Assembly (NCBI RefSeq): GCF_045037415.1
Contig: NZ_CP173438.1
From: Escherichia coli
Lineage (GTDB): Bacteria > Pseudomonadota > Gammaproteobacteria > Enterobacterales > Enterobacteriaceae
Direction: 5' to 3' (one strand)
DNA length: 64,000 nucleotides
Numbering within the stretch: position 1 is the stretch's first letter; every line of letters begins with the position of its first letter. A model generated the notes under the pieces. The model did not search any database and was not told the origin of the DNA. It was given only the letters and a program-made list of their open reading frames with translations. Positions 27,477 through 56,070 of this stretch are shown here, piece after piece. Made by a program: the position numbers and the translations under genes.

Positions 27477-28217
27477 TCAGAAAAGAGAAGATTGCTGTGG
27501 AATAGCCGGAACTGCTCCGATCTCTGGAAGCGTTTTACGTAAGTCTTCCCACAGGGTATGTACCAGTTCCGGGGCCTGGGCAATATCTGGCGTATGTAAA
27601 AAAAGATAAGGCGTAGTGGTCTGATGCCACTGCGCTAATTTTTGTAACCAGACCTGAAATAATTCCCGGTTTTGCGTCATATCATCACTACCGATAAAAC
27701 GGATCAGTGGATTTTTCGCCGTCAGTACAGCATGTACCGGAACTTTAGGTTTTTTTCGTTGAGCGTAGCGAATAGCTTCACTGTGTGGACGTGCTGCATG
27801 AACCGGGCGGCTGTCTAAAATCACCCGATTAACGCCGCGCTGATGTAAACCGCGATTAAGCGTTTGTTCCTCTTCCCCTTTGGCGAAAAACTGTGGATGG
27901 CGGACTTCCACACCATAATTAAATTCGCCGGGAAGAGAATCGAGAAAATGCCAAAGCGCAGGCAGCTCCCGTGGGCCGAATGTGGCAGGCAGTTGCAGCC
28001 AGTATTGTCCAATGCGCGGAGCCAACGGTGACATGCGGGTCAAAAATTCAGTCACTAAATCATCGCAATGCCGTAATGCTGCCTGATGCGAAATAGTCGC
28101 CGGAAACTTAAAACAGAAGCGGAAGTCATCTGTGGTCTGCTCACGCCAGCGCAGGACAACCTCGGGTTTCGGCAGGGCATAAAGCGTGGTGTTACCCTCC
28201 ACACAGTTAACATGACG
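27477..28217 (-). pseudogene. yecE: yecE (DUF72 family) lacking about 29 N-terminal codons; disrupted by prophage integration
   Basis: Frame matches YecE from ...RH(V)NCVEGNTTLYALPKPEV to the C-terminus ...AIPQQSSLF; upstream of about 28217 the frame continues into phage sequence with no ATG and an in-frame stop at 28260-28262. Confidence 0.75.
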
Positions 28218-28228
28218 GGTATTAAGGA

Positions 28229-29542
28229 TTAACTTACTGATTTTAATAAGCCTCTGGTGTCACTTTGGTGACTATGGGGCATCATTGGGACATAATCTGT
28301 CAGCTTCTGATTCAGCATTGCGATCTGTTCTGCATTGCTGTCAGTCATCCATGCTCCGTATACATTGAATACCATCTGGGCACTTGCATGGCCCATCTGG
28401 CTGGCAATGAAGCTTGGGTTTGCTCCGGCAGATAATGACCAGCACGCATAAGTGTGTCGTGACTGGTATGCCTTTCGATGCCTGATCCCTGCACGCTTAA
28501 TGGCTGTTTCCCATGAGTCACCTACAGAATCGACTTTGTAGACAAAACCTACCTGTTCGCTTTTTCTAACCACTTGAGGGTTAAACACGAAAGTACATTC
28601 ATGGTTCACTGAACGTCCATATTCACGTAGTTGCACCTTGATGTTGTACTGCTTACCCAGTCTTGTCATTTCAGCCTGATTTTTCAGGACACTGATAGCG
28701 GGCTGGATAAGGTGCACAACCCTGTTTGTGCTTGCTTCAGTTTTCGGTAGAGTGAACTCACCAAGTTTCGTATAATTGCGCCTGATGGTAATTGTTCCTG
28801 CCTTCAGATCGATATCTTCCCAGGCCAGGGAAACCAGTTCACCGTGACGCATTCCTGTGTACACAGCCAATGACCACAGGTTTTTCGTCTGCTGATGTCG
28901 GCAAGCATCTATCAGGCGAATAAATTCGTCACGAGTTAGCGGATCTGGCTCTGCCCTGGCTCTTTTAAGAGGCTTAATTCCCTGGAAGGGATTTGCTTCT
29001 AAGTAACCGTGATCTGCAGCAAACTGAAACATTCCAGCGATTGTCGTCATGTAATAATTTACAGTAACGACGCTCCGTCCTTTTGCTGCTGCTTTGTTTT
29101 TCGTTGAATTCTGATACCCGGTAAGCAAATCTTTCCTGATATACAGCAATTCCTCTTTGGTTACCGATGACACCAGTCTACTGCCTCCAATTTTCGGAAC
29201 CATCGTTCTTGCAACGGATTCATAGCGATTGAATGCATTTGCAGAGATTTCCATTCGTTTCAGATCCAGCCACTTTTCTTCAAGTTCCTTCACCGTAATT
29301 TCTTTTTTACTTACCCCAAAAGCCTGAAGGTTGGGGGAGTCAGGGAACTGTGCAGCATAATCAAAGCTTCCTGTGCGGATGGCAAAACATACTGATGTCC
29401 GCAGTTCCCCGGCGATCTTCCTGTTCTTGGCAGTGTCAGGGACACCAAGATTTTCCCTGACACGTTTACCTTTAAAATTAAACCAGATGCGTAATGTGCC
29501 GCCGTGGTTTTCGACGCCTGTTGGATATTTGACTTTATCCAT
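28229..29542 (-). CDS. int: phage integrase (tyrosine recombinase)
   Basis: 437-aa ORF; C-terminal catalytic region with R...HxxR...Y arrangement (HTYACWS...GHASAQMVFNVYGAWM) typical of lambdoid integrases; abuts the attL junction. Confidence 0.9.
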   Translation of the reverse strand: MDKVKYPTGVENHGGTLRIWFNFKGKRVRENLGVPDTAKNRKIAGELRTSVCFAIRTGSFDYAAQFPDSPNLQAFGVSKKEITVKELEEKWLDLKRMEISANAFNRYESVARTMVPKIGGSRLVSSVTKEELLYIRKDLLTGYQNSTKNKAAAKGRSVVTVNYYMTTIAGMFQFAADHGYLEANPFQGIKPLKRARAEPDPLTRDEFIRLIDACRHQQTKNLWSLAVYTGMRHGELVSLAWEDIDLKAGTITIRRNYTKLGEFTLPKTEASTNRVVHLIQPAISVLKNQAEMTRLGKQYNIKVQLREYGRSVNHECTFVFNPQVVRKSEQVGFVYKVDSVGDSWETAIKRAGIRHRKAYQSRHTYACWSLSAGANPSFIASQMGHASAQMVFNVYGAWMTDSNAEQIAMLNQKLTDYVPMMPHSHQSDTRGLLKSVS

Positions 29543-29597
29543 CGATACCTCCAGACGCCCAAGAGCGATACGAGCTTACATATTTCATGATATTAAA

Positions 29598-41137: not shown

Positions 41138-42534
41138 CCAGCCAGAACACCCCGGCATGGCGTAACGATGACCTGGAAGGCGCTGTCATCGGTGCGTTTT
41201 TTCTGCGTGGGGCCGATCCGGAAGTGATGGATATTCTGGCCACACTTCCGGCGGATGTATTTTTTGTGCGTCAGTACCGGGATATTTACGCGGGGATTTG
41301 CAGACAGGCTCGCATATCCGGCGTCATTGACCCCGTACTGCTGTGCAATGAGATGCCGGAACTTGCCCCGGTGATTACCGACACCGGACGCAAAACCTGG
41401 GTGAAGTCTTCACTGGAGCACTATGTCGCAGCGTTGCGGCGCAATGCCGCACTGCGTGATGCAGAAAAAACACTGACTGAAGCATTACAGAATTTACGTG
41501 ATGCGTATACCTGTGAAGCAGCCGAGGATGCCCTGAAGGATGCGCAGAACATGATGGCCTCACTGTCGACCGGAAAGGGCGTCATTCAGCCGGTTCACAT
41601 TGATGATGTCCTTCCGGAAGTGGTCGACCGTGTTGAATGCCGCAATCAGGGACTGGAGAAATCCAGGGCGCTGATGACCGGTATTGATGAACTGGACGCA
41701 AAAACGGGCGGTATGGAGCCCGGAGACCTGGTATTCATTGCCGCCCGTCCTTCGATGGGGAAAACCGAACTTGCGCTGGACATCATCGACAAGGTGACTG
41801 AGCAGGGGCATGGCGTGCTTCTGTTCACCATGGAGATGGCGAACATCCAGATTGGTGAACGTATGGTGTCTGCTGCCGGTGGAATGCCGGTATCCCGTCT
41901 TAAGTCTGTTGCCCGTTTTGAAGATGAAGACTGGGCGCGTTTCTCGCAGGGCGTGGGACGAATGACGGGGCGTAATATCTGGATGGTGGACCAGGCAAAC
42001 CTGACCATTGATGAGATATGTGCAACCACGAAGCACCACCGGATGAAGCATCCGGAAACGGCGCTGGTTGTGGTCGATTACCTCGGCCTGATTAAAACCC
42101 GCAGCACGGGGCGTCACGACCTTGCTGTGGGGGAAATCTCAAAGGGACTTAAAAGCCTGGCAAAATCCGGCGGTTTTCCGCTGATTGCTCTGAGCCAGCT
42201 CTCCCGTGGCGTGGAATCCAGACCCAATAAACGCCCAATGAACTCGGACCTGAAAAACTCCGGGGAAATCGAGGCGGATGCCGACATCATTCTGATGCTT
42301 TACAGGGAGGAGGTATACAACCCGGAAACTCAGGCCAGAGGCATAGCAGAAATCAACATCACGAAACAGCGTAATGGCACGCTCGGGACCATTTACCGGC
42401 GTTTTCATAACGGACATTTTCTGCCTGTGGACCAGGAGAGTGCCCGGGTTCTTTCCACACCAATGCAACAGCCCCAGCCGCGCAGATACAGCAACAAACG
42501 AACTGACAGCAGTAAGATGGAGCGTTTCTTTTGA
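41134..42534 (+). CDS. DnaB-family replicative DNA helicase
   Basis: 466-aa ORF with Walker A ARPSMGKTELALD and DnaB-like C-terminal domain motifs (VVVDYLGLI, LSQLSRG). Confidence 0.85.
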   Translation: MTSQNTPAWRNDDLEGAVIGAFFLRGADPEVMDILATLPADVFFVRQYRDIYAGICRQARISGVIDPVLLCNEMPELAPVITDTGRKTWVKSSLEHYVAALRRNAALRDAEKTLTEALQNLRDAYTCEAAEDALKDAQNMMASLSTGKGVIQPVHIDDVLPEVVDRVECRNQGLEKSRALMTGIDELDAKTGGMEPGDLVFIAARPSMGKTELALDIIDKVTEQGHGVLLFTMEMANIQIGERMVSAAGGMPVSRLKSVARFEDEDWARFSQGVGRMTGRNIWMVDQANLTIDEICATTKHHRMKHPETALVVVDYLGLIKTRSTGRHDLAVGEISKGLKSLAKSGGFPLIALSQLSRGVESRPNKRPMNSDLKNSGEIEADADIILMLYREEVYNPETQARGIAEINITKQRNGTLGTIYRRFHNGHFLPVDQESARVLSTPMQQPQPRRYSNKRTDSSKMERFF

Positions 42535-42788
42535 ACAACCAGACAATGACTTTTACCCCTGAGCAATTACGTAAACAGGCACAGGAAATGTTGCGGCAGG
42601 CGGAACAACTGGAAAAAACAGGTGTAACAAAAGATGCCATTCGTCGGGATATGGTGCCAGCGCTCAGGGAACTGATGCAGGCAAAACACCGTGCACAAAA
42701 AGCAGTGGATGAGCTGGTGGATTGTGTGGCAGAGCTGGAAACCAGAGTTGGTAAGTTTGAAAAACTGGTGCAGGAGGTACTGCGCTGA
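42531..42788 (+). CDS. hypothetical coiled-coil protein
   Basis: 85-aa ORF, overlapping-stop packing. Confidence 0.4.
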   Translation: MNNQTMTFTPEQLRKQAQEMLRQAEQLEKTGVTKDAIRRDMVPALRELMQAKHRAQKAVDELVDCVAELETRVGKFEKLVQEVLR

Positions 42789-43156
42789 TGCGTGATATGT
42801 ACGAAGTTTTAGATCGTTGGGGGGCCTGGGCTGCAGCAGATAACAGTGGTGTGGACTGGCAGCCGATAGCAGCAGGCTTCAAGGGGCTTTTACCACACGG
42901 TAAAAAGTCACGTCTCCAGTGTGATGATGACGAAGGTATCATGATAGACGGTTGTGTGGCTCGGTTGCGAAAGTATAAACCCGAAGAGTATGAGTTGATC
43001 ATTGCTCACTTTGTTATTGGTATCTCATTACGCGCTATTGCTAAAAAACGGAAATGTTCAGATGGAACAATACGGAAAGAGATGCAAACAGCAATGGGGT
43101 TTATTGATGGCTGCTTGTCATTTTTCATTTACTACAATGACTTAAGTTCTATGTAA
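42788..43156 (+). CDS. late-gene antiterminator Q-like protein (QuuD-type)
   Basis: 122-aa ORF MRDMYEVLDRWGAWAAADNSGVDWQPIAAGFKGLLP... resembling the recalled short Q/QuuD family of E. coli prophages; sits directly before the late cargo and lysis region. Confidence 0.6.
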   Translation: MRDMYEVLDRWGAWAAADNSGVDWQPIAAGFKGLLPHGKKSRLQCDDDEGIMIDGCVARLRKYKPEEYELIIAHFVIGISLRAIAKKRKCSDGTIRKEMQTAMGFIDGCLSFFIYYNDLSSM

Positions 43157-43219
43157 AATCGTTCTACTTTCCCAACTTTTATGTGTATATAATACCAGGA
43201 TAAAGTAACGGAGAATCTT

Positions 43220-44260
43220 GTGAACATTCAGGCAGTAGACATTTTTTGTGGTGCGGGGGGCTTAACTTTTGGGCTAAAAAAAGCCGGGATTGAGGTTTCT
43301 CATGGTATTGATATTGATGAATCCTGCCGTTTTGCTATTGAGAGCAATAATCCTTTAACGCAGTTCATTAATCAGTCAGTTACAGAACTGCAATCCTGCG
43401 ATGTGTCTGCTATGTTCAAGGAAGGAAATATTAGATTGCTTGCTGGATGTGCTCCTTGCCAACCGTTTTCCAAGTATCGTAATCCAAATAGCCGTAAAGA
43501 CGATACAAAGTGGCGTTTGTTATATGAGTTTCAAAGGCTTGTAAGTGATGTCATGCCAGAGCTTGTGACGATGGAGAATGTTCCTCAACTTAGAAACCAT
43601 AAGGTTTTTGAAGGGTTTGTTAGTGCATTAAAGACTCTTGGATATCATTTGTGGTACGACGTTGTAAGATGTTCTGAGTATGGCTTACCTCAAAATAGAC
43701 GTAGATTAATTCTAATTGGTTCCCAATTGGGGCCGATCAGCCTTGATCAAAAAAAAGTTAGCCGTAAAGTTACTGTTAAGGATGCTATTGGTAGGTTGCC
43801 AAAAGTAGGGGCAGGTGAGAAGCTGGAAAGCGATCCCTTGCATCGTTCGCCTAAATTGATGGATATCAATCTTAAACGAATCATGCATTCTTTACCTGGT
43901 GGTACGTGGGATGACTGGCCTGAAGAAATTAGAGCAGACTGTCATAAAAAGAATTCAGGTGCTACCTATAAAAGCGTTTATGGACGGATGGTTTGGGACG
44001 ATACTAGCCCTACGATAACTACCCAGTGTTATGGATATGGAAATGGACGATTTGGCCATCCTGAGCAAAATCGCGCCATAACTTTGCGTGAAGCTGCGAT
44101 TTTGCAATCCTTTCCAATGGATTATAAATTCCTTGACAAGGAGACGCCTTTTTCATTCCAAAAATTGGGGACAATGATTGGAAATGCTGTTCCCCCTATA
44201 ATTGGTCAGATAATAGGGGAAACATTTATCAGACATGTTGAGGGGATAAATACCCGTTAG
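43220..44260 (+). CDS. DNA (cytosine-5)-methyltransferase, Dcm family
   Basis: 346-aa ORF, GTG start; C5-MTase motifs I FCGAGG, IV PCQPFS, VI ENV, VIII QNRRR and X GNAV are all visible. Confidence 0.85.
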   Translation: MNIQAVDIFCGAGGLTFGLKKAGIEVSHGIDIDESCRFAIESNNPLTQFINQSVTELQSCDVSAMFKEGNIRLLAGCAPCQPFSKYRNPNSRKDDTKWRLLYEFQRLVSDVMPELVTMENVPQLRNHKVFEGFVSALKTLGYHLWYDVVRCSEYGLPQNRRRLILIGSQLGPISLDQKKVSRKVTVKDAIGRLPKVGAGEKLESDPLHRSPKLMDINLKRIMHSLPGGTWDDWPEEIRADCHKKNSGATYKSVYGRMVWDDTSPTITTQCYGYGNGRFGHPEQNRAITLREAAILQSFPMDYKFLDKETPFSFQKLGTMIGNAVPPIIGQIIGETFIRHVEGINTR

Positions 44261-44918
44261 AGGTAATATAATTTTCTGTTGAGTTGATTAATAAACGCAA
44301 ATATAGATCAATTCTTTCTGACCTCGATTTGACTTCTTCTAAAGGGTCTATTTGACCTTTTTTAGAAAAGCTGGTACTTCCATGTGCCAGCTCATTTCTG
44401 ATATCTTTAAGTAAATCTAAGTCAACACCATTTCTACACTCTGGTGAGTTTGCAACAGTTATTCCGTAAGCTTGTGTTATTTTGTGCAATACAGACTTGC
44501 AAACATTACCATTGAATTCTTTACGTATGTTTAATGAGGCTGAAATGATCCTTTTAGATATATCGGAACCAATTTTTTGATAAAGAGATTTTCCCGATTC
44601 ATTATCTGAAATGATACGGTGCAAGATATTTACTTGGAATTTCTCCCTGAGTGATGCGTAATTTACTTCATTATCTTGCAAATGGTCATAAATTGACTCA
44701 ATGCATCCTCTGGCAGTGTTTTCAACCTGATTGTACAGCATCATGTGCACGGATGATTTTAAAATGTTAACCCTAAGGGTATTTGATTCTATTTCATCTT
44801 TATGCGTTTGCTGATCTAACTGCTGAGTCTGAGCCTCTAAAGATGACGCAAGAGAAAGCAATTCCATAATATCTCTTGCTCTTTCTTCGTATTCATCTCT
44901 TAAATCAATCAAACTCAT
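44229..44918 (-). CDS. HEPN-domain protein (predicted RNase/nuclease), partner of the DUF262 protein
   Basis: 229-aa ORF; C-terminal Rx4H HEPN motif (DIRNELAHG); ATG 2 nt after the stop of the upstream DUF262 gene with an AGGA Shine-Dalgarno inside that gene's 3' end. Confidence 0.65.
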   Translation of the reverse strand: MSLIDLRDEYEERARDIMELLSLASSLEAQTQQLDQQTHKDEIESNTLRVNILKSSVHMMLYNQVENTARGCIESIYDHLQDNEVNYASLREKFQVNILHRIISDNESGKSLYQKIGSDISKRIISASLNIRKEFNGNVCKSVLHKITQAYGITVANSPECRNGVDLDLLKDIRNELAHGSTSFSKKGQIDPLEEVKSRSERIDLYLRLLINSTENYITSNGYLSPQHV

Positions 44919-44920
44919 AG

Positions 44921-46078
44921 TTACATTCCTAATAATTTATCTTTGACATAAAATATTCTGTTTTTGAGTTGGCTGGTGTTGTTGGCACTATCAGCAGTAA
45001 CTATGGTTTCAAATTCCTCCCCAAACAGCCAGTCTCCTACAGGAATAACCGGAGCCTGTAGATGTGGATTGGCTTTTAAGGCAAGAGCAGTTCCCACTGC
45101 TATGGCTTCGTATCTAGCACGGGGGGTGGTTTTGCTTGTTGGTGTCTTTTTAAACCCCATAGGGAAATGAGCATCTACAAAAGCAAGCATGCTTTCAAAA
45201 TCATGTTTAAATTTGTCTACATCTTGTTGTGTGACCCTTTCGGCCTGAACATTAAGATAATTGTCAATAAAAGGAGCGACATAACCCTTATAATTTTCTA
45301 AATCATTTAAGTATGCAAAAAATCTCAAAACTAACTCACGATGATCGCCATTCGAACGTTTCCGGTCTGATAATGGAGCTAGACTAGCGAAAAGTGGATT
45401 TGTTGAGCAAGGAGTCACAACATCCCTATAGAAAATTGAAGTGGCCGCATCTGAACCATGTCTAACCTCCATCGCTTCCAGTCTCTTAACACCTGAATTT
45501 ATTCTTTCGAATAAATCTCTTCTATGTTGCTCCTCAACATCACCTTTCAATTCAATAAATCTTAGTGATGCCCTTAAAAATCGCCTCTGGCGGCTAGCCA
45601 AAAGATCTGAAAATTTGAAGCCCTCTAAACTTTTGAGTTCTTTTAAGTCTTTCAATTCAAACTGATTGTTCCAAAAGTAGTAAATTGAGCGAATCCTTTG
45701 TGAACCGTCAATAATTTCTACACGACCATCCAACTCAGGATCTTCATTAAATACGTCGGAGATGTAGAGGTACGGGATTGGAAAATCTAATAATATACTT
45801 TCGATGAATCGAGAGGCTGTTTTGATATCCCATTTGTAATCGCGTTGATAATCAGGAATAAAAAGTTCGTTTTTGTCAGTTTCAAGATTATTGCCATACT
45901 TTTGTACAATTAATTCAACGGTCCATTCACGTACGTTGTATCCAATATTTCTCTGAGCAAGCCTAATCTCGTTGTCGGCAGAAGTGACCAAGGCTGCAAT
46001 TTCAGCTTTTTTTCTATTTTTCGCGTTTTCATCTTGAATCTGAGCAAGCTCTTCTTTGAGTTCTTTGAGTGTGGTCAT
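44921..46078 (-). CDS. DUF262 (ParB/Srx-like, GmrS-N-type) domain protein without an HNH/DUF1524 domain
   Basis: 385-aa ORF; DUF262 hallmarks FIPDYQRDYKW and IIDGSQR near the N-terminus; long helical C-terminal region with no nuclease motif. Confidence 0.75.
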   Translation of the reverse strand: MTTLKELKEELAQIQDENAKNRKKAEIAALVTSADNEIRLAQRNIGYNVREWTVELIVQKYGNNLETDKNELFIPDYQRDYKWDIKTASRFIESILLDFPIPYLYISDVFNEDPELDGRVEIIDGSQRIRSIYYFWNNQFELKDLKELKSLEGFKFSDLLASRQRRFLRASLRFIELKGDVEEQHRRDLFERINSGVKRLEAMEVRHGSDAATSIFYRDVVTPCSTNPLFASLAPLSDRKRSNGDHRELVLRFFAYLNDLENYKGYVAPFIDNYLNVQAERVTQQDVDKFKHDFESMLAFVDAHFPMGFKKTPTSKTTPRARYEAIAVGTALALKANPHLQAPVIPVGDWLFGEEFETIVTADSANNTSQLKNRIFYVKDKLLGM

Positions 46079-46186
46079 ATCACTGTTCCTTTAATTGGAG
46101 TTGGAAATAGATTGTAAGAAAACTATAACGCGTACGCAAAAAATATTATATCGTGTTAAGAGTGGTTACTACGCCACACAGCTTAA

Positions 46187-46212
46187 ACCCGCCGCCAGGC
46201 GGTTTTTTGTGT
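46187..46212 (+). terminator. intrinsic terminator on the + strand (candidate late tR'-type terminator)
   Basis: cccgccgccaggcgg hairpin followed by a T6 run, between the DUF262 gene start and the next + strand ORF. Confidence 0.45.
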
Positions 46213-46331
46213 CCGAAAAACGGCGCAGTACGTTAAACGTGCTGGTGGTTGCGAATACCGGTCTTTCAGCTTGCTGGCTTTTCAGACAAGAGTTATTGGT
46301 ATGTCACGTTAACCAGAAAAGGGAAAAAGAC

Positions 46332-46529
46332 ATGCTAAAACAGCAGGATATGACCGAAACTGCCAGAGTGGTGTTTAATGAATTAAGCGTCACCGAACCG
46401 GCGACCGTCGGGGAAATTGCGCAGAATACTTACCTTTCACGCGAACGCTGCCAGCTAATACTGACCCAGCTTGTTATGGCGGGTCTGGCAGATTATCAGT
46501 TCGGTTGTTACAGACGCCTTCCGCAGTGA
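46332..46529 (+). CDS. hypothetical small protein, possible winged helix
   Basis: ORF 46095..46529; start placed at MLKQQDMTETARVVFNELSV... Confidence 0.35.
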   Translation: MLKQQDMTETARVVFNELSVTEPATVGEIAQNTYLSRERCQLILTQLVMAGLADYQFGCYRRLPQ

Positions 46530-46679
46530 AGGCTTTTTTATTTGTGGTAATGGGCGGCTGGTGGGTGTTAGCGGCACCTGCCAGCCATCTGCTCATGCGT
46601 TGGGGTCACAAGCAAACCTCAGGCCCATCTGCTTTGCGCAAAAGCGGTATGAGCCTATCAGAGAAGTGCTTATTGATCT

Positions 46680-47420
46680 ATGGCTAATACTGTAAAAATA
46701 TCCAGTTGTGAGTTAATCAACGCCGACTGCCTGGAATTTATCCGGTCGTTACCCGAAAATTCTGTTGACCTGATAGTCACGGACCCGCCGTACTTTAAAG
46801 TGAAGCCTGAGGGCTGGGATAACCAGTGGAAGGGCGACGATGATTACCTGAAGTGGCTGGACCAGTGTCTGGCGCAGTTCTGGCGGGTGCTGAAACCTGC
46901 CGGAAGTCTTTACCTGTTCTGTGGTCATCGCCTGGCATCTGATATCGAAATCATGATGCGTGAACGCTTCAGTGTGCTGAACCATATTATCTGGGCGAAG
47001 CCGTCCGGACGCTGGAACGGATGCAACAAGGAAAGCCTGCGGGCGTATTTCCCCGCCACAGAGCGCATTCTGTTCGCGGAACATTATCAGGGGCCGTATC
47101 GTCCGAAAGATGCCGGGTATACGGCGAAGGGCAGTACGGCTGTGTCGGACAGGGCTTACATATTGCCAAAAAACTGCTTCCGTATATCCCTAATAACGCG
47201 GGGATCCTGCTGGTACCATGCTGTCGTGGTGGTTCGGCATTCACCCAGGGCACGGAGGGGACATTCAGCGAGTCCACGGGGGCCAGTCAGGATTCGGCTC
47301 GCTGGGGAGTGGGTAAGCCGTTATATCAGGATCTGCTTTTCCGCACGAAGGCAGCATTGCAGAAAAACCCGAAAAACGTTTTGCTGGCGATATGCTGGAT
47401 GCAGGGGGAATTCGATATGA
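46680..47420 (+). pseudogene. N6-adenine/N4-cytosine-type DNA methyltransferase, N-terminal fragment only (frame lost after about 140 codons)
   Basis: Motif IV TDPPYF and ...LNHIIWAKP... are present, but no motif I follows; the frame degenerates into low-complexity sequence while the overlapping frame becomes NanS-like. Confidence 0.45.
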
Positions 47421-48562
47421 CGAATGCCAGTTACGCCCAGCAGCCAGCAGCATTTCTTGCAATGGTACAGCAGTTCCGTGCTGACCTTGCCGGGCTGGCG
47501 GCGCAGTGTCACGGTGGAAGTCCGGCATCAGTCCCCTGGATTTGTGGCGACACGACATACGTGTGGAAACAAGAACACGGTACGCAATATGAAGTGGTAT
47601 ATGGTGCATATAAAGGTAAAGAATCCCAGCAGATTTATTTTGTTCCCTTTATGACCGATGGTAGCGGAGTTAATACACCGACAAACAACCCGTCAGAAGA
47701 TCCTGATATTGCCGGGTCTGGTTATTACGGTTCGGCATCCCGAACGAACAAAAACTGGGTATCATCAAATCGCCCGACGCATTTCAGCTCATGGGCGCGT
47801 CGTGGCATTATTCCCGATCGTATGGCAACTGCTATTCTGAACGTAGCCGGTCGCACCTTAGCCTTCATTAGTGGTAAGGCACCGGAAATCAAACCCTCGC
47901 CCGGCGGCGACACTCCATCGGGGCCGTCTGATGGTGACACATCCGTTCGTACAGTCTCCCTGCTGCCGACAGCCGGAGAGGCTGCTGCGCAGGGCTGGAC
48001 CATCACCGGCGGCAGTGTTGCGCTGGAAGATGGTGTGTTTAAGGTTACCAAGCAGAGCAATAAAACTTGGTCCCTGATGCATCCGGTGGATGACGCAGTC
48101 TCCCTGCTGACACGGGGTGGCAGACTGAGCTGTAAGTTTCGACTGTCAGGCGCACTGACCAACAACCAGTTCGGTCTGGGAATTTATCTGTGTACCGATG
48201 TAGCGTTACCTGACGTCGTGGCGATGACCGGGACTGGTAACCCGTTCCTGATGTCGTTCTTCACCCAGACCACAGACGGCAAACTGAATCTGATGCATCA
48301 CAGGAAAGCAGGAAACACAAAGTTGGGCGAGTTCGGGAATTACAGTAACGACTGGCAGACGCTGGAGCTGGTGTTCACCGCCGGCAGTGCCACGGTTACT
48401 CCGAAACTGAATGGAGTGGCTGGCCCGGCATTCCAGGTCATAAAAGACAGTCTGACACTGGGGCTGAATGCGCTGACGCTGACGGATATTACCAAAAATG
48501 CAGCGTATGGCGTTGAGATAGAAAGTCTGGTGCTGGAGATAAATGCACCAGCATCATCATAA
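47021..48562 (+). CDS. prophage NanS-like sialate O-acetylesterase (NanS-p type), apparently 5'-truncated
   Basis: Frame matches recalled YjhS/NanS from ...QYGCVGQGLHIAKKLLPYIPNNAGILLVPCCRGGSAFTQGTEGTFSE... onward, plus a C-terminal extension; the N-terminal GQSN-containing region was not seen. Confidence 0.55.
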   Translation: MQQGKPAGVFPRHRAHSVRGTLSGAVSSERCRVYGEGQYGCVGQGLHIAKKLLPYIPNNAGILLVPCCRGGSAFTQGTEGTFSESTGASQDSARWGVGKPLYQDLLFRTKAALQKNPKNVLLAICWMQGEFDMTNASYAQQPAAFLAMVQQFRADLAGLAAQCHGGSPASVPWICGDTTYVWKQEHGTQYEVVYGAYKGKESQQIYFVPFMTDGSGVNTPTNNPSEDPDIAGSGYYGSASRTNKNWVSSNRPTHFSSWARRGIIPDRMATAILNVAGRTLAFISGKAPEIKPSPGGDTPSGPSDGDTSVRTVSLLPTAGEAAAQGWTITGGSVALEDGVFKVTKQSNKTWSLMHPVDDAVSLLTRGGRLSCKFRLSGALTNNQFGLGIYLCTDVALPDVVAMTGTGNPFLMSFFTQTTDGKLNLMHHRKAGNTKLGEFGNYSNDWQTLELVFTAGSATVTPKLNGVAGPAFQVIKDSLTLGLNALTLTDITKNAAYGVEIESLVLEINAPASS

Positions 48563-48712
48563 AAAGTGAGCCAGTCAAATGGAAGGTATCGTTAAACTCA
48601 CCGGTAGTGTCAGTGGGTCGTCTGAGATGCCTGCATGAGTTATCAGAGCCATCAGTACTTAACTGGTGGCTTTTTTTATTGTTGTCAGCTTCCGGATAAC
48701 GGGAGACGGGGT

Positions 48713-48928
48713 ATGTACCAGATGGAAAAAATCACAACAGGTGTGTCATACACCACGTCAGCGGTGGGAACGGGCTACTGGTTCCTGCAGTTGCTGGACA
48801 GGGTTTCCCCGTCTCAGTGGGCGGCAATAGGCGTGCTGGGGAGTCTGCTGTTTGGGCTGCTGACATATCTGACTAACCTGTATTTCAAAATCAGAGAGGA
48901 CCGTCGTAAGGCTGCACGGGGAGAGTAA
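48713..48928 (+). CDS. S: holin, phage 21 S-like pinholin
   Basis: ORF 48635..48928; [71 protein letters not shown] resembles S21; tandem Met starts (MYQM) and a GGGAGACGGGG Shine-Dalgarno. Confidence 0.8.
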
Positions 48929-48932
48929 TTCA

Positions 48933-49283
48933 ATGACTCAAAACTATGAACTGATTGTGAAAGGGATCCGCAATTTTGAGAATAAAGTTACGGTAACTTT
49001 AGCGTTACGGGACAAAAAACGCTTTGACGGTGAAATTTTTGACCTGGACATCTCGCTGGACCGTGTTGAAGGTGCCGCGCTGGAGTTTTATGAGGCAGCA
49101 GCCAGAAGGAGCATCAGACAGGTCTTCCTGGATGTTGCTGCCGGGTTATGTGAAGGGGATGAGCAGTCGCCGGAAAAGCGCCCCGTAATTTTAGAGGCGC
49201 AGAATGTATGGATAACCTACAAAGGAAAGCTACCGGGAAGAATTACTGGTTCTCTGAAGACTCCTCCGGAATCACAACCTTAA
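48933..49283 (+). CDS. hypothetical protein inserted between holin and endolysin
   Basis: 116-aa ORF with no recognisable motifs. Confidence 0.4.
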   Translation: MTQNYELIVKGIRNFENKVTVTLALRDKKRFDGEIFDLDISLDRVEGAALEFYEAAARRSIRQVFLDVAAGLCEGDEQSPEKRPVILEAQNVWITYKGKLPGRITGSLKTPPESQP

Positions 49284-49346
49284 GTCACTGACCGGAACAG
49301 ATAAACCTGTCCGTGGGCAGAAACCGATAAATCCTGATAAATATCC

Positions 49347-49880
49347 ATGAACACCAAAATCAAATACGGCCTGTCGGCTGCCGTTCTGGCGCTGATTGCC
49401 GCTGGTGCGCCTGCGCCTGACATTCTCGACCAGTTTCTGGATGAAAAGGAAGGTAACCACACCACGGCATACCGTGATGGCGCGGGTATCTGGACCATCT
49501 GCCGCGGTGCCATCCTGGTGGATGGCAAACCTGTCGTTCCGGGCATGAAGTTGTCGAAGGAAAAATGCGACCGGGTTAACGCCATTGAGCGTGATAAGGC
49601 GCTGGCATGGGTGGAGAAAAACATCAAAGTGCCATTGACCGAACCCCAGAAAGCGGGGATCGCGTCATTCTGTCCGTACAACATTGGTCCCGGTAAGTGT
49701 TTCCCGTCGACGTTTTACAGACGAATTAATGCTGGCGATCGCAGGGGAGCATGTGAGGCGATTCGCTGGTGGATTAAGGACGGTGGCAGAGACTGCCGTA
49801 TTCGTTCAAATAACTGCTATGGACAGGTCTCACGGCGTGACCAGGAGAGCGCGCTGGCGTGCTGGGGAATTGACAAATAA
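49347..49880 (+). CDS. R: SAR endolysin (lysozyme, GH24-like) R
   Basis: 177-aa ORF; N-terminal weakly hydrophobic Gly/Ala-rich signal-arrest-release segment (YGLSAAVLALIAAGAPAP) followed by a lysozyme-like domain. Confidence 0.8.
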   Translation: MNTKIKYGLSAAVLALIAAGAPAPDILDQFLDEKEGNHTTAYRDGAGIWTICRGAILVDGKPVVPGMKLSKEKCDRVNAIERDKALAWVEKNIKVPLTEPQKAGIASFCPYNIGPGKCFPSTFYRRINAGDRRGACEAIRWWIKDGGRDCRIRSNNCYGQVSRRDQESALACWGIDK

Positions 49881-50039
49881 GCAGAATATTTTGTTGAAAA
49901 ATGACGTTGGCTAATACGGACGGATAACACGAAATCCTGAGAACTGGCAAAACCTAAGTGAATAAAAGTAAAAACCCCGTTTGTTGGCTGCAAGCGGGGT
50001 TTTGTGTTTCCTGACTCTGGAAAAGTCAAAGGAGAAAGT

Positions 50040-50177
50040 GTGTTTGATTTTAGCAAACTGATTCGGGAGATTCGAGTGATGGCTGAAAAATTATCCACCT
50101 GGAAGTTCATTCTTATCTGGCTGGTGTTTGTGATTATGGCCTCCGGTTATTTCATCGGTCAGATACGCTGGTGGTGA
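50040..50177 (+). CDS. possible small membrane protein between R and Rz
   Basis: GTG start after an AAAGGAGAAAG Shine-Dalgarno; product contains the hydrophobic stretch KFILIWLVFVIMASGYFIG; below the ORF-track size cutoff. Confidence 0.25.
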   Translation: MFDFSKLIREIRVMAEKLSTWKFILIWLVFVIMASGYFIGQIRWW

Positions 50178-50178
50178 A

Positions 50179-50646
50179 ATGAACCGCGTACTGTGCGTGG
50201 TCATCATTGCCCTGCTGGTGGCCTGTGGTGCGCTTAGTCTGGGGCTGAATCATTACCGTGATAACGCCATAACCTACAAAGAGCAGCGCGATAAAAAAGT
50301 CAGTGAGCTGGAGCTGGCAAATGCAACCATTACTGATATGCAGCAGCGCCAGCGTGATGTTGCTGCACTTGATGCCAGATACTCGAGGGAATTAGCCGAT
50401 GCGAGAGCTGAAAATGAAACTCTTCGCGCTGACGTTGCCGCTGGTCACCGCAGCCTGCGGATCAACGCCACCTGTCCAGGTCCCGTGCGTGAAGCCACCG
50501 GCACCGCCCGCGTGGATAATGCAACCGGCCCCCAACTGGCAGACACCGTTACACGGGATTATTTCACCCTCAGAGAGCGGCTGATGACGATGCAGAAGCA
50601 ACTGGAAGGGGCACAGGACTATATCCGCACTCAGTGCCTGAAATAA
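50179..50646 (+). CDS. Rz: i-spanin Rz
   Basis: 155-aa ORF MNRVLCVVIIALLVACGALSLGLNHYRDNAITYK... closely resembles lambda Rz. Confidence 0.82.
   Translation: MNRVLCVVIIALLVACGALSLGLNHYRDNAITYKEQRDKKVSELELANATITDMQQRQRDVAALDARYSRELADARAENETLRADVAAGHRSLRINATCPGPVREATGTARVDNATGPQLADTVTRDYFTLRERLMTMQKQLEGAQDYIRTQCLK
50414..50584 (+). CDS. Rz1: o-spanin Rz1 (lipoprotein) embedded in the +1 frame of Rz
   Basis: MKLFALTLPLVTAACGS...CVKPPAPPAWIMQPAPNWQTPLHGIISPSE closely resembles lambda Rz1, including the lipobox cysteine and proline-rich region. Confidence 0.72.
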   Translation: MKLFALTLPLVTAACGSTPPVQVPCVKPPAPPAWIMQPAPNWQTPLHGIISPSESG

Positions 50647-51269
50647 GTTTTGCTGATGCGCGGTATTGTCGCCGTATCCCCGCATTAACAGAGACCGCAG
50701 CCCGACAGGGAGACTCCTCTGCGCGAGTGTGCGGGGATAATCAAAAACGATACACACCGGGGTTTACCGCGTTAACGGAGCGCGGCGTTGTCCCCTCATA
50801 GTCGCCTGTCCGGTGCGATGGTGGAAGAAGCCGGATGTTTATCACTATTAATTGATGACACAGAAATGGATTCATTGAATTTCAGCACGTTTTTGTATTC
50901 GTGTTATTGAACATCTGTTTATTTTACTTTTAACATATTGATAATAAAAAGAGCTGTAAATCTTTAGATGAGTCGATTTTGTCCGGGGAAGTTCAAATGG
51001 ATTTTATGCTGACGGTTTCTGGTGTGGTTATCCTGTCCATTGCTTATACTGCAGATAAATATGGCTGCCATTTGTTATCACGTATTGGCGCTTATTGTTC
51101 GTTGATGCTGATTTTCTCGTCGCTTTTTTTTGAGTAAGTTATATTAATTATAACAAATAATTTTCTGTGTTATTTTTTCAGGCTATCCCGTCAGAGGGGA
51201 AGCCTGTACTGCCAGGGAGCGAATGGAAAACTGATGTGTCCGGTAACTGCGTGTTCTGTGAACACCATG

Positions 51270-51455
51270 TTACTTAATTATGTAATTCATACCCGAACTC
51301 TCTGTTGACAGCCTTCTTCTGCAGGCTTCAATAACCCACGCTGAAAAGTTTCCTGAACCTTTCAGATCAAGAGCGATGTTAATTTGTTCAATCATCTGGT
51401 TTGGAAATCGGATGTTGCGGGTTGTTGTTCTGCGCGTTCTGTTCTTTGATGACAT
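51270..51455 (-). CDS. small Arc/ribbon-helix-helix-like DNA-binding protein
   Basis: 61-aa ORF; ...NIRFPNQMIEQINIALDLKG..NFSAWVIEACRRRL resembles the RHH pattern; lies in the lambda-like right-end region. Confidence 0.4.
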   Translation of the reverse strand: MSSKNRTRRTTTRNIRFPNQMIEQINIALDLKGSGNFSAWVIEACRRRLSTESSGMNYIIK

Positions 51456-51661
51456 AATGTTTCCCCATATTCAGTGTTGCTGATTTGTATTATCAGAAGT
51501 TGCTTTTACGTTAATTTGACGCAGATCAATTAATACGATACCTGCGTCATAATTGATTATTTCTCGTGGTTTGATGGCGTACACACATGTTGTGATAAAC
51601 CTTATATAGATGATAATCATTATCATTTCGTGGGTCCTTTCCGGCGATCCGACCGGTTACG

Positions 51662-51673
51662 GGGCGGCGACCT
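51662..51673 (+). other. cosN cohesive-end site (lambda-type 12-nt gggcggcgacct)
   Basis: Exact lambda cosN 12-mer, flanked upstream by ...gggtcctttccggcgatccgaccggttacg and downstream by cgcgggttttcgctatttatgaaaattt, both recalled lambda right-end and left-end sequences. Confidence 0.75.
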
Positions 51674-51842
51674 CGCGGGTTTTCGCTATTTATGAAAATT
51701 TTTAGGGAAAAATCAGATCCGTTCTTCTTCTTTTTAACTGATTGATTATCAATAGAATTTTAAAAATATAAAAGGATCTGACAAAGGCTGTTTTTGTTAG
51801 AAAACGCCATTTTCAGATCCTTTCTGGTTCCCGGGGGAGTGT

Positions 51843-52391
51843 ATGAACGTCAATAAGAAAAAACTGGCCGATATTTTTGGCGTTGATGTCAGGACCATCA
51901 CCGCCTGGCAGAGTCAGGGGTTACCACTAGTTTCTGGTGGAGGGAAAGGGACTGAATCAGTTTTTGATACAACTGCTGCCATTCAGTGGTATGCGCAGAG
52001 GGAAGCTGATATTGAAAACGAAAAACTCCGTAAAGAGATCGAGGATTTGAGGGCTGCCAGCGAATCAGACCTTCAGCCCGGCACCATTGATTACGAACGT
52101 TACCGACTGACGAAGGCACAGGCCGATGCACAGGAGCTGAAAAATGCTCGTGAGGAAGGCCTTGTCCTCGAGACGGAGTTATTTACCTACATCTTTCAGC
52201 GAGTGGCACAGAATATATCAGGGATCCTTGTCCGTGTCCCTCAGACACTGCAGCGTAAATACCCTGATATATCACCCGTACATCTTGATGCTGTGAAAAC
52301 TGAAATCGCGAAAGCATCCGATGTGGCTTCTGAAGCCGGTGAGAATGTGCGCAGGTGGATTGATGATTTCAGACGAACTGAGGGCGGCTAA
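51843..52391 (+). CDS. nu1: terminase small subunit Nu1
   Basis: 182-aa [39 protein letters not shown]... closely resembles lambda Nu1. Confidence 0.88.
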
Positions 52392-54291
52392 TTCTGCAGG
52401 AGCGATAGCAACCGGCCTCCTTGCGCTAAAAATTCCTGTCCCTCTGACGACAGTTCAGTGGGCAGATCGACATTATTACCTTCCGAAAGAGTCATCTTAC
52501 ACCCCGGGGCGGTGGGAAACACTGCCGTTTCAGGTTGCCATCATGAACAGCATGGGGAATGACCGGATCCGCACTGTTAATCTGATTAAATCTGCCCGTG
52601 TTGGTTATACAAAGATGTTGCTGGGAGTGGAGGCTTATTTTATTGAGCATAAATCACGCAACAGCCTTCTTTTCCAGCCCACGGATTCTGCTGCTGAAGA
52701 TTTTATGAAATCTCATGTGGAACCCACGATCAGGGATGTGCCGGTTTTACTCGATCTTGCACCGTGGTTTGGGCGTAAACATCGTGATAATACCCTCACG
52801 CTGAAACGTTTTTCATCGGGCGTGGGCTTCTGGTGCCTGGGCGGGGCTGCCGCTAAAAACTACCGTGAAAAATCCGTGGACGTGGTCTGCTATGACGAAC
52901 TTTCCTCGTTCGAACCGGATGTCGAAAAAGAGGGTTCGCCAACCCTGCTTGGGGATAAACGTATTGAGGGCTCTGTATGGCCCAAATCCATTCGCGGCTC
53001 GACGCCTAAAATCAAAGGCACCTGCCAGATCGAAAAAGCGGCCAACGAGTCGGCGCATTTCATGCGTTTTTATGTGCCCTGCCCACACTGTGGGGAGGAG
53101 CAGTATCTGAAATTTGGCGATGAATCCACGCCTTTTGGCCTTAAATGGGAGAAGGACAGCCCCGAAAGCGTTTTCTACCTCTGTGAACATCATGGCTGCG
53201 TGATCCATCAGTCTGAGCTTGACCAGAGCAACGGGCGGTGGATCTGTGAAAACACGGGGATGTGGACCCGTGACGGTCTGACGTTTTTCAGCGCCGCGGA
53301 TAATGAAATTCCGCCGCCGCGCTCCATCACGTTCCATATCTGGACGGCGTACAGTCCGTTCACCACCTGGGTACAGATAGTCTATGACTGGCTGGATGCA
53401 CTGAAAGATCCCAACGGCCTGAAAACCTTTGTGAACACCACGCTGGGCGAGACCTGGGAAGAGGCCGTGGGCGAAAAACTCGATCACCAGGTACTGATGG
53501 ATAAGGTCGTGCATTACACGGCGGCGGTGCCAGCCCGGGTGGTTTATCTGACGGCGGGCATTGACTCGCAGCGAAACCGTTTTGAGATGTATGTCTGGGG
53601 ATGGGCACCGGGAGAGGAAGCTTTTCTGGTGGATAAAATCATCATTATGGGCCGTCCCGATGAGGAAGAGACGCTGTTACGTGTGGATGCGGCGATCAAC
53701 AAAAAATACTGCCATGCAGACGGAACCGAAATGACCATTTCCCGTGTCTGCTGGGACACCGGGGGGATCGATGGTGAAATTGTCTATCAGAGGTCAAAAA
53801 AACACGGTGTTTTCCGGGTGCTGCCGGTAAAAGGCGCATCTGTCTATGGCAAGCCGGTGATCACCATGCCGAAAACCCGCAATCAGCGGGGCGTGTATCT
53901 GTGTGAAGTGGGGACGGACACCGCAAAAGAAATTCTCTATGCCCGTATGAAAGCCGATCCCACGCCTGCGGATGAAGCCACGTCGTATGCCATCCGTTTT
54001 CCTGATGATCCGGAGATTTTTTCGCAGACAGAGGCGCAGCAACTGGTCGCGGAAGAGCTTGTGGAGAAGTGGGAAAAAGGAAAGATGCGTCTGCTGTGGG
54101 ATAACAAAAAGCGGCGTAACGAAGCGCTGGACTGCCTGGTGTATGCCTATGCGGCATTACGTGTGTCCGTGCAACGCTGGCAGCTTGATCTGGCTGTACT
54201 GGCAAAATCCCGGGAAGAAGAGACGACCCGGCCAACCCTTAAAGAACTGGCAGCGAAGCTGTCCGGAGGAGTGAATGGTTACAGTCGCTGA
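52363..54291 (+). CDS. A: terminase large subunit A
   Basis: ORF 52321..54291 resembles lambda gpA throughout ([12 protein letters not shown]..., [14 protein letters not shown]..., [11 protein letters not shown]...); start placed at MISDEL, overlapping the Nu1 3' end. Confidence 0.9.
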
Positions 54292-54481
54292 ACTACAGGC
54301 GCTGCGTCAGGCGCGCCTTGATTTATTAACCGGTAAACGGGTGGTGTCTGTCCAGAAAGATGGTCGCAGAATTGAATATACGGCGGCTTCTCTGGATGAG
54401 CTTAACCGGGCGATCAATGATGCGGAGTCGGTACTGGGGACAACCCGACGTCGCCGTCGTCCGCTGGGAGTGAGGTTATGA
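54275..54481 (+). CDS. W: head-tail joining protein W
   Basis: 68-aa ORF ...LLTGKRVVSVQKDGRRIEYTAASL... resembles lambda gpW. Confidence 0.8.
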   Translation: MVTVAELQALRQARLDLLTGKRVVSVQKDGRRIEYTAASLDELNRAINDAESVLGTTRRRRRPLGVRL

Positions 54482-56070
54482 AACGAACGCCTGTCCTGAT
54501 TGATGTGAACGGCGTTCCGCTTCGTGAGAGTCTCAGCTACAACGGGAGCGGCGCAGGATTTGGCGGGCAAATGGCGGAGTGGTTGCCACCGGCGCAGAGT
54601 GCCGATGCGGCCCTGCTACCCGCGTTGCGTCTGGGGAATGCCCGGGCAGATGATCTGGTGCGCAATAACGGAATAGCGGCTAATGCGGTGGCTCTGCATA
54701 AGGATCACATTGTCGGGCATATGTTTCTGATCAGCTACCGTCCGAACTGGCGCTGGCTGGGGATGCGGGAGACCGCAGCAAAAAGCTTTGTCGATGAGGT
54801 GGAGGCGGCCTGGTCGGAATACGCCGAAGGGATGTTTGGTGAGATCGACGTGGAAGGAAAACGCACGTTCACGGAATTTATCCGTGAAGGTGTGGGCGTT
54901 CATGCGTTTAACGGCGAAATCTTTGTGCAGCCGGTCTGGGATACGGAAACCACGCAGTTATTCCGTACGCGTTTTAAAGCCGTGAGTCCGAAACGGGTGG
55001 ACACGCCTGGACACGGTATGGGGAACCGTTTTCTGCGGGCCGGTGTGGAGGTCGATCGATATGGCCGTGCCGTCGCGTACCATATTTGTGAGGACGATTT
55101 TCCGTTCTCTGGTAGTGGACGATGGGAACGGATCCCGCGTGAACTTCCCACCGGGCGTCCGGCCATGCTGCATATTTTCGAGCCGGTGGAGGACGGGCAG
55201 ACCCGTGGGGCTAATCAGTTTTACAGCGTCATGGAACGGCTGAAGATGCTCGATTCCCTGCAGGCAACACAGCTTCAGTCGGCCATAGTGAAGGCGATGT
55301 ATGCAGCGACGATTGAAAGTGAACTTGATACCGAAAAGGCCTTTGAATATATCGCCGGTGCGCCGCAGGGGCAGAAGGATAATCCGCTTATTAATATTCT
55401 GGATAAGTTCTCCACCTGGTATGACACGAATCACGTGACGCTGGGCGGTGTCAAAATTCCGCACCTTTTCCCCGGTGATGATCTGAAACTTCAGACCGCG
55501 CAGGATTCAGACAATGGATTTTCAGCGCTTGAACAGGCGCTGCTGCGGTATATCGCCGCCGGTCTTGGCGTTTCCTACGAACAGTTGTCCCGTGATTACT
55601 CGAAGGTCAGTTATTCAAGTGCCCGCGCCTCCGCCAATGAGTCGTGGCGCTATTTTATGGGGCGGCGAAAATTTATTGCGTCCCGGCTGGCCACGCAGAT
55701 GTTTTCCTGCTGGCTGGAAGAGGCACTTCTTCGGGGGATTATTCGTCCGCCACGGGCACGTTTTGATTTTTATCAGGCGCGATCAGCCTGGTCACGGGCT
55801 GAGTGGATTGGAGCCGGAAGAATGGCCATTGACGGGCTCAAGGAGGTTCAGGAATCAGTGATGCGCATTGAGGCCGGACTGAGCACGTATGAGAAAGAGC
55901 TGGCGCTGATGGGCGAGGATTATCAGGACATTTTCCGCCAGCAGGTCAGGGAATCTGCAGAGCGGGAAAAAGCCGGACTCTCACGTCCGGTGTGGATAGC
56001 GCAGGCGTATCAGCAGCAGATAGCGGAGAGTCGCAGGCCGGAAGAGGAGACAACACCACGTGAGACGTAA
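54478..56070 (+). CDS. B: portal protein B
   Basis: 530-aa ORF resembling lambda gpB (ADDLVRNNG..., FEPVEDGQTRGAN.FYSVME, AIVKAMYAATIESELDT...). Confidence 0.9.
   Translation: MKRTPVLIDVNGVPLRESLSYNGSGAGFGGQMAEWLPPAQSADAALLPALRLGNARADDLVRNNGIAANAVALHKDHIVGHMFLISYRPNWRWLGMRETAAKSFVDEVEAAWSEYAEGMFGEIDVEGKRTFTEFIREGVGVHAFNGEIFVQPVWDTETTQLFRTRFKAVSPKRVDTPGHGMGNRFLRAGVEVDRYGRAVAYHICEDDFPFSGSGRWERIPRELPTGRPAMLHIFEPVEDGQTRGANQFYSVMERLKMLDSLQATQLQSAIVKAMYAATIESELDTEKAFEYIAGAPQGQKDNPLINILDKFSTWYDTNHVTLGGVKIPHLFPGDDLKLQTAQDSDNGFSALEQALLRYIAAGLGVSYEQLSRDYSKVSYSSARASANESWRYFMGRRKFIASRLATQMFSCWLEEALLRGIIRPPRARFDFYQARSAWSRAEWIGAGRMAIDGLKEVQESVMRIEAGLSTYEKELALMGEDYQDIFRQQVRESAEREKAGLSRPVWIAQAYQQQIAESRRPEEETTPRET

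What the first reader, a model, noticed from the sequence alone, without database searches (positions are those of the whole stretch)
46680..47420. N6-adenine methyltransferase fragment joined out of frame to a 5'-truncated NanS-like esterase
ORF 46680..47420 starts as a convincing beta-class MTase (TDPPYF motif IV, LNHIIWAKP) but never reaches motif I and degenerates after about 140 codons. From about 47120 a different frame (ORF 47021..48562) reads as a YjhS/NanS-like esterase lacking its expected N-terminal region. This looks like a deletion scar fusing two cargo genes, probably inactivating the methylase and possibly the esterase.
Basis: partly seen in the sequence, partly recalled or inferred. 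Interest (0 to 1): 0.4.

Follow-up and report, generated by a model that had tools for sequence, protein, structure and literature searches.

The report
Prophage deletion scar joining two genes
A 1,812-base deletion in a lambda-like E. coli prophage joined the front of a DNA methylase gene to the back of a sialic-acid esterase gene, out of frame; this is ordinary prophage decay that public annotation already flags as two pseudogenes.

Summary

- **What is there:** window 46680-47135 holds codons 1-152 of a 349-aa beta-class N6-adenine DNA methyltransferase. From 47124/47136 to 48562 the sequence is codons 140-618 of a 618-aa prophage NanS-p (SASA) sialate O-acetylesterase, read one base out of phase.
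- **The intact version:** strain CH4796 carries a nearly identical prophage, with 3 differences in 13.6 kb outside the repeat. Its locus reads methylase, three tRNA genes, a small pseudogene, then NanS-p.
- **The deletion:** the window differs by one clean 1,812-bp deletion between two copies of GC(G/A)AAGGGCAGT. One copy remains at 47124-47135.
- **What was lost:** methylase motif I (FMGSG), all three tRNA genes, the NanS-p DUF1737 domain, and the GQSN block carrying the catalytic serine. Both genes are therefore predicted to be dead.
- **Not an artefact:** the same junction is present in 48 of 5,426 complete E. coli genomes, including strains named O25b:H4-ST131.
- **Already recorded:** RefSeq annotates both remnants as pseudogenes.

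This is real but ordinary prophage decay, of low interest.

The parts
46680..47135 (+). 5' remnant of a beta-class N6-adenine DNA methyltransferase gene: codons 1-152 of 349. It keeps motif IV (DPPY at residue 35) and lacks motif I.
   Evidence: 99.98% identical to the intact gene of CH4796 up to 47135. Pfam N6_N4_Mtase covers model positions 1-105 of 221 only. PGAP annotates a pseudogene 'missing C-terminus'.
47124..47135 (.). Deletion junction: the single remaining copy of the direct repeat GC(G/A)AAGGGCAGT. The crossover lies within the exact 9-mer AAGGGCAGT at 47127-47135.
   Evidence: Three-way alignment with the left and right copies in the intact locus, L005 5177-5188 and 6989-7000. Microhomology of 9 bp or more is expected for about 9 in 100,000 random breakpoint pairs.
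47136..47420 (+). Out-of-frame tail of the methylase ORF: 94 codons and a stop, read in the wrong frame of NanS-p. It is not homologous to any methylase.
   Evidence: Frame arithmetic. There is no Pfam match beyond residue 134.
47021..47125 (+). Apparent N-terminal extension of ORF 47021: methylase DNA read in the NanS-p frame. It is an accident of the fusion, not esterase coding sequence.
   Evidence: NanS-p homology starts only at 47124. PGAP starts the remnant at 47126.
47126..48562 (+). 3' remnant of the prophage NanS-p (SASA family) sialate O-acetylesterase gene: codons 140-618 of 618. It keeps SGNH blocks II (RGGSAF), III (MQGEFD) and V (THFS) and the C-terminal DUF6645 jelly-roll domain. 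It lacks DUF1737 and block I (GQSN).
   Evidence: 99.96% identical to the intact CH4796 gene. Pfam SASA from model position 63, plus DUF6645. PDB 3pt5 and 6yp6 alignments. Block definitions from PMC10792757. PGAP annotates a pseudogene 'missing N-terminus'.

Best explanation
This is a deletion scar in the late-gene cargo region, between the antiterminator Q gene and the lysis genes, of a lambda-like prophage integrated next to yecE in an ST131-type E. coli chromosome. The ancestral locus read: methylase (349 aa), tRNA(CAT), tRNA-Arg(TCG), tRNA-Arg(TCT), a small pseudogene, then NanS-p esterase (618 aa). A single 1,812-bp deletion occurred between two short direct repeats, GCGAAGGGCAGT in the methylase gene and GCAAAGGGCAGT in nanS-p. 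This is the signature of RecA-independent short-homology deletion by replication slippage or illegitimate recombination. The mechanism is inferred; the repeats and their single-copy outcome are shown. The joint is out of frame. The methylase remnant lacks its AdoMet-binding motif I and everything between motifs IV and I. The esterase remnant lacks the capsid-binding DUF1737 domain and the serine nucleophile. Both products, if made at all, are predicted to be inactive, and the three phage tRNA genes are gone.
For: The sister prophage in CH4796 has identical protein accessions on both sides and an intact locus. The window aligns to it in two blocks, at 99.98% and 99.96%, that overlap by 12 bp, which implies a 1,812-bp gap. 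The three tRNAs lie in the deleted interval and the window has none. The repeat sequences and the frame offset are shown. Junction microhomology of 9 bp or more is expected for 9e-5 of random breakpoint pairs. Motif I (FMGSG) is at residue 310 and GQSN at residue 71 of the intact proteins. NanS block I is GQSNA with the Ser19 nucleophile, and mutagenesis confirmed that the Ser and His are catalytic (PMC10017367). The 3pt5 alignment covers the GQSN block at residues 59-379 of the intact protein. A junction-spanning 121-bp query matches in full in 48 of 5,426 genomes. PGAP annotates two pseudogenes. Separate, intact versions of each gene are common: methylase DNA occurs in about 1,925 genomes and NanS-p DNA in about 1,955.
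Against: Nothing here contradicts it. Inactivity is inferred from sequence and was not measured. The deletion mechanism (slippage versus another short-homology pathway) cannot be told from the sequence. Whether CH4796 is the direct ancestor or only a close relative is unknown. I did not test that the 48 genomes form one clone.
Confidence: 0.95

Rival explanations
1. Sequencing or assembly error: a 1-bp frameshift in what is really one in-frame fusion gene, or a collapsed assembly.
For: Only the bare fact that two ORFs overlap out of frame.
Against: The difference from the intact allele is 1,812 bp, not 1 bp. The identical junction is found in 48 complete genomes assembled independently. No in-frame fusion appeared among the records inspected, where the two genes are always separate and 1.8-3 kb apart.
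Confidence: 0.01
2. A mosaic junction created by recombination between two different lambdoid phages, one donating the methylase side and the other the NanS-p side, rather than a deletion within one element.
For: Lambdoid phages are highly mosaic. The best phage-database matches for the two sides come from different phages, PPyecE_EH1910 or phiP27 for one and Stx2 phage 86 for the other.
Against: Both flanks, 5.2 kb to the left and 8.4 kb to the right, are at least 99.96% identical to one single prophage (CH4796) that has the intact locus. An internal deletion is therefore the simplest account. An exchange between two copies at the same short repeat would give the same product and the same functional result.
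Confidence: 0.03
3. The remnant is still useful: ORF 47021 or a shorter internal start yields a non-catalytic sialoglycan-binding protein, using the retained substrate-pocket blocks II, III and V and the jelly-roll carbohydrate-binding module.
For: The C-terminal DUF6645 domain is intact and aligns to the solved NanS-p C-terminal domain 6yp6, which is described as a lectin-like carbohydrate-binding module (PMC10462455). The ORF stays open for 513 codons.
Against: The only upstream start codon lies in out-of-frame methylase sequence with no recognised start signal. The catalytic domain lacks its first 80 or so residues, including a core strand and the nucleophile, so it is unlikely to fold. The deletion is confined to 48 near-identical genomes, so there is no evidence of conservation. 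The remnant already carries a nonsynonymous change (47562, Ala to Val) relative to the intact allele.
Confidence: 0.03

Closest known systems
Prophage NanS-p sialate O-acetylesterases (933Wp42 of phage 933W, gp84/vb_24B_21 of phi24B, YjhS-family protein of Stx2 phage 86), which are homologues of chromosomal NanS/YjhS (PDB 3pt5)
   Same: 97.3% DNA identity to the phage 86 gene over the retained part. Same genomic position directly upstream of the holin gene. Same SASA and DUF6645 domains and SGNH blocks II, III and V.
   Different: It lacks residues 1-139, comprising the DUF1737 domain (shown to be the capsid-decorating domain in phi24B) and block I with the serine nucleophile. It is a pseudogene, not a working family member.
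Beta-class (motif IV before motif I) N6-adenine DNA methyltransferases carried downstream of Q in lambdoid and Stx prophages, such as the phiP27 putative DNA methylase and the methylases of Stx2a phages
   Same: 92-98% DNA identity over the retained 5' part. Motif IV DPPY is present. Same position after the small conserved ORF (phrog_331) downstream of Q.
   Different: It ends at codon 152 of 349, so there is no motif I and no segment between motifs IV and I. Pfam covers only the first half of the model.
Short-direct-repeat (microhomology) deletions in bacterial genomes and decaying prophages
   Same: Two imperfect 12-bp direct repeats (9 bp exact) flank the lost segment in the intact allele, and exactly one copy remains.
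   Different: Nothing unusual. The mechanism is inferred from the product only.

Membership tests
N6_N4_Mtase (PF01555), beta-class adenine methyltransferase | Catalytic motif IV (D/S)PP(Y/F) | tested here: met
   DPPY at residue 35 of the window ORF.
N6_N4_Mtase (PF01555), beta-class adenine methyltransferase | AdoMet-binding motif I (FxGxG) at the C-terminal end | tested here: not met
   FMGSG lies at residue 310 of the intact protein. The window gene ends its homology at codon 152.
N6_N4_Mtase (PF01555), beta-class adenine methyltransferase | Full-length domain match | tested here: not met
   The window ORF covers model positions 1-105 of 221, while the intact relative covers 1-219. The NCBIfam score of 68.9 is far below the cut-off of 292.
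NanS / NanS-p SASA (SGNH-fold) sialate O-acetylesterase | Block I GQSN with the serine nucleophile (Ser19 in NanS) | tested here: not met
   GQSN is at residue 71 of the intact 618-aa protein. The window retains codons 140 onward only.
NanS / NanS-p SASA (SGNH-fold) sialate O-acetylesterase | Blocks II (RGGSAF), III (MQGEFD) and V (xHFS, catalytic His) | tested here: met
   RGGSAF, MQGEFD and THFS are all present in ORF 47021.
NanS-p (prophage form) | N-terminal DUF1737 domain | tested here: not met
   It occupies residues 3-53 in the intact protein and is absent from the window ORF.
NanS-p (prophage form) | C-terminal DUF6645 / jelly-roll carbohydrate-binding domain | tested here: met
   Pfam DUF6645 with E = 6e-19 at residues 363-473. 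The equivalent part of the intact protein aligns to PDB 6yp6.
NanS-p (prophage form) | Esterase activity on Neu5,9Ac2 | not testable with these tools
   This needs an enzyme assay. It is predicted to be absent because the nucleophile is deleted.
Short-homology (direct-repeat) deletion | A direct repeat at both ends of the lost segment in the intact allele, with one copy left at the junction | tested here: met
   L005 5177-5188 and 6989-7000 compared with window 47124-47135. The chance expectation is 9e-5.

The most novel reading that the evidence does not exclude
The NanS-p remnant is expressed during prophage induction as a catalytically dead, lectin-like sialoglycan binder. Alternatively, loss of the methylase and the three rare-codon tRNA genes was selected in an ST131 sublineage rather than being neutral decay.
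Probability: 0.03. Interest if true: 0.3.

Novelty: already known. Interest (0 to 1): 0.08.

Why it matters
It matters little. The case documents one well-resolved example of how prophage cargo decays: a short-repeat deletion that removes parts of two genes and three tRNA genes. The exact junction could serve as a lineage marker for the 48 genomes that carry it. It also means this prophage should not be counted as a source of sialate O-acetylesterase activity or adenine methylation in those strains. Annotation pipelines already call both remnants pseudogenes.

Tried and rejected
- **1-bp frameshift or natural in-frame fusion:** rejected. The intact allele differs by 1,812 bp, and no fusion gene appeared among the inspected homologous loci.
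- **The 81-genome count from the 2.2-kb query:** this is an overestimate. A junction-spanning 121-bp query gives 48, so the larger figure probably includes places stitched together from separate pieces.
- **NCBIfam:** it has no model for NanS-p, with no hits for either the intact or the truncated protein.
- **PADLOC:** it gave nothing for the HEPN-like neighbour or the small upstream ORF.
- **Promoter scan:** no sigma-70-like site in 46000-49000, so there is no sign of a new promoter created at the junction.
- **E302 as the intact parent:** rejected. Its methylase is 99.3% identical but its downstream region is different, with IS66 and iraM. CH4796 is the proper comparator.
- **Window against strain 4433:** a naive position-by-position comparison appeared to fail, but this was only a 1-bp indel.

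Full report
**Observation.** The two overlapping ORFs exist exactly as described: 46680..47420 (246 aa) and 47021..48562 (513 aa), both on the + strand. The first begins with a clear methyltransferase sequence containing VTDPPYF and LNHIIWAKP. Pfam matches it to N6_N4_Mtase only over residues 29-134, which is the first 105 of 221 model positions. The second ORF matches the SASA esterase family only from model position 63 onward, plus a complete DUF6645 domain.

**Identity of the locus.** The 2.2-kb stretch is 100% identical to many complete E. coli chromosomes, including strains named O25b:H4-ST131. The window as a whole matches strain 4433. It differs by one mismatch and one 1-bp indel over the first 42.7 kb, and by one mismatch in each of the two comparisons that cover the rest. 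It runs from chromosomal araH...yecN and a DUF72 gene (yecE) into a lambda-like prophage that starts with an integrase next to that gene. In that genome RefSeq already annotates two pseudogenes: 'DNA-methyltransferase, missing C-terminus' (window 46680-47138) and 'DUF6645 domain-containing protein, missing N-terminus' (window 47126-48562). They lie between the antiterminator Q region and the holin, lysozyme and Rz lysis genes.

**Intact versions of each gene.** The esterase part matches full-length prophage NanS-p genes, starting at window position 47124. Examples are the 631-aa YjhS-family protein of Stx2 phage 86 at 97.3% identity, and the genes downstream of stx in many Stx1a phages. The methylase part matches 349-354-aa 'DNA methylase' genes of Stx2a phages, phiP27 and about 1,925 E. 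coli genomes. Pfam on the intact proteins gives N6_N4_Mtase across the whole methylase. For NanS-p it gives DUF1737 (residues 3-53), SASA and DUF6645.

**The undeleted sister allele.** Strain CH4796 carries a prophage with identical protein accessions for the helicase, Q, Dcm, HEPN-like nuclease, DUF262 protein, small ORF, holin, YdfR, lysozyme, Rz and terminase. Its locus is intact: methylase (349 aa), tRNA-Ile (CAT anticodon), tRNA-Arg (TCG), tRNA-Arg (TCT), a 126-nt pseudogene fragment, then a SASA esterase of 618 aa. The window aligns to it in two blocks:
- window 41948-47135 to L005 1-5188, with 1 mismatch;
- window 47124-55562 to L005 6989-15427, with 3 mismatches, one of which lies inside the repeat.

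The blocks overlap by 12 bp, which implies one deletion of exactly 1,812 bp.

**The junction.** The repeat reads GCGAAGGGCAGT in the methylase gene and GCAAAGGGCAGT in nanS-p. The window keeps one copy with the methylase-type G at 47126, so the crossover fell within the exact 9-mer AAGGGCAGT at 47127-47135. For random breakpoint pairs in these two genes, 9 bp or more of microhomology is expected about 9 times in 100,000. The endpoints are therefore not arbitrary. They fit a short-direct-repeat deletion, with replication slippage or illegitimate recombination as the likely route. That mechanism is an inference from the product.

**Consequences.**
- **Frame:** at 47124 the methylase frame is in phase 0 and the NanS-p frame is in phase 1, so the joint is out of frame.
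- **Methylase ORF:** 152 genuine codons are followed by 94 meaningless ones.
- **ORF 47021:** it starts with about 35 codons of methylase DNA read in the wrong frame.
- **Methylase loss:** motif I (FMGSG, residue 310) and everything between motifs IV and I are gone.
- **Esterase loss:** residues 1-139 are gone, including DUF1737 and GQSN at residue 71.
- **Why GQSN matters:** in NanS (PDB 3pt5) block I is GQSNA with Ser19 as the nucleophile. Blocks II (RGGSAF), III (MQGEFD) and V (SHFS) follow (PMC10792757). Mutagenesis confirmed the catalytic role of the Ser and His (PMC10017367 citing Rangarajan 2011). The 3pt5 alignment covers residues 59-379 of the intact protein and includes this block. 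The window ORF keeps blocks II, III and V and the C-terminal jelly-roll domain (6yp6), but not the nucleophile.
- **DUF1737:** a 2026 preprint shows that this domain of the phi24B homologue is a capsid-decorating domain. It is also deleted here. This prophage has a lambda-type head with its own decoration protein, so that role may not apply in any case.
- **tRNA genes:** all three are lost, and ARAGORN finds no tRNA anywhere in the window. From my own knowledge, they correspond to the ileZ-argN-argO set described upstream of stx in Stx phages.

**Artefact excluded.** A 121-bp query spanning the junction matches in full in 48 of 5,426 complete genomes. All other genomes match only one half of it. 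The count of 81 from the longer query is an overestimate.

**How ordinary this is.** PHROGs contains separate families for the N-terminal and C-terminal halves of this methylase, and for several pieces of NanS-p. Many E. coli NanS-p hits are annotated only as 'DUF6645 domain-containing protein'. Both points suggest that fragmentation of these two cargo genes is common. Compared with the intact allele, the remnant carries one nonsynonymous change (47562, Ala to Val).

**Verdict.** The feature is a precisely defined deletion scar that is already captured as two pseudogenes in public annotation. It has no unusual mechanism and is of low interest.

Noticed in passing
window 43220-46078: Between the antiterminator Q gene and the methylase remnant sits a C5 cytosine methyltransferase (43220-44260, +). 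Two minus-strand genes follow it: a MAE_28990/MAE_18760 HEPN-like nuclease (44229-44918) and a DUF262 protein (44921-46078). The DUF262 protein hits the PADLOC models NsnA (E = 6e-46) and PD-T4-2_A (E = 4e-27). This looks like a defence or restriction-type cassette inserted antisense into the phage late transcription unit. The HEPN partner has no PADLOC hit but belongs to phrog_3846.
   Followed up: partly
L005 5832-6081 (absent from the window): The deleted interval held three phage tRNA genes with anticodons CAT (called Ile by PGAP and Met by ARAGORN), TCG and TCT. The whole 64-kb window has no tRNA gene.
   Followed up: yes
window 48645-48683: A strong terminator-like hairpin (12 pairs) followed by a T-run lies between the NanS-p remnant's stop codon (48562) and the holin start (48713). 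The homologous region of phage 434 carries an annotated 'terminator' (H36). It is odd to find one directly upstream of the lysis genes in a late operon.
   Followed up: partly
window 46332-46533: A small conserved ORF (65 aa, phrog_331; called 'TrmB family transcriptional regulator' in one genome) always precedes the methylase gene in the inspected phages. It is followed at once by a terminator-like hairpin at 46516-46533.
   Followed up: no
window ~10955-11107: Between tar and cheR, RefSeq annotates only a short frameshifted 'Tar ligand binding domain' pseudogene, at the position where K-12 has tap. This is another deletion remnant in the chromosomal part of the window.
   Followed up: no
window ~27480-29545: The prophage integrase gene overlaps the 3' end of the DUF72 (yecE) gene, which places the prophage at the yecE integration site also used by Stx phages. 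PPyecE_EH1910, a prophage named after that site, has the best phage-database match to the methylase part.
   Followed up: no
window 47562: This is the only coding difference between the NanS-p remnant and the intact CH4796 allele, and it is nonsynonymous (Ala to Val in TTYAWKQ). It is compatible with relaxed constraint, but a single change proves nothing.
   Followed up: no
PHROGs hits to L005 proteins: PHROGs holds separate families that correspond to halves or pieces of the methylase (phrog_6025, phrog_6952) and of NanS-p (phrog_9498, 19075, 16581, 3591 and others). Split or truncated copies of both genes are evidently frequent in deposited phage genomes.
   Followed up: no
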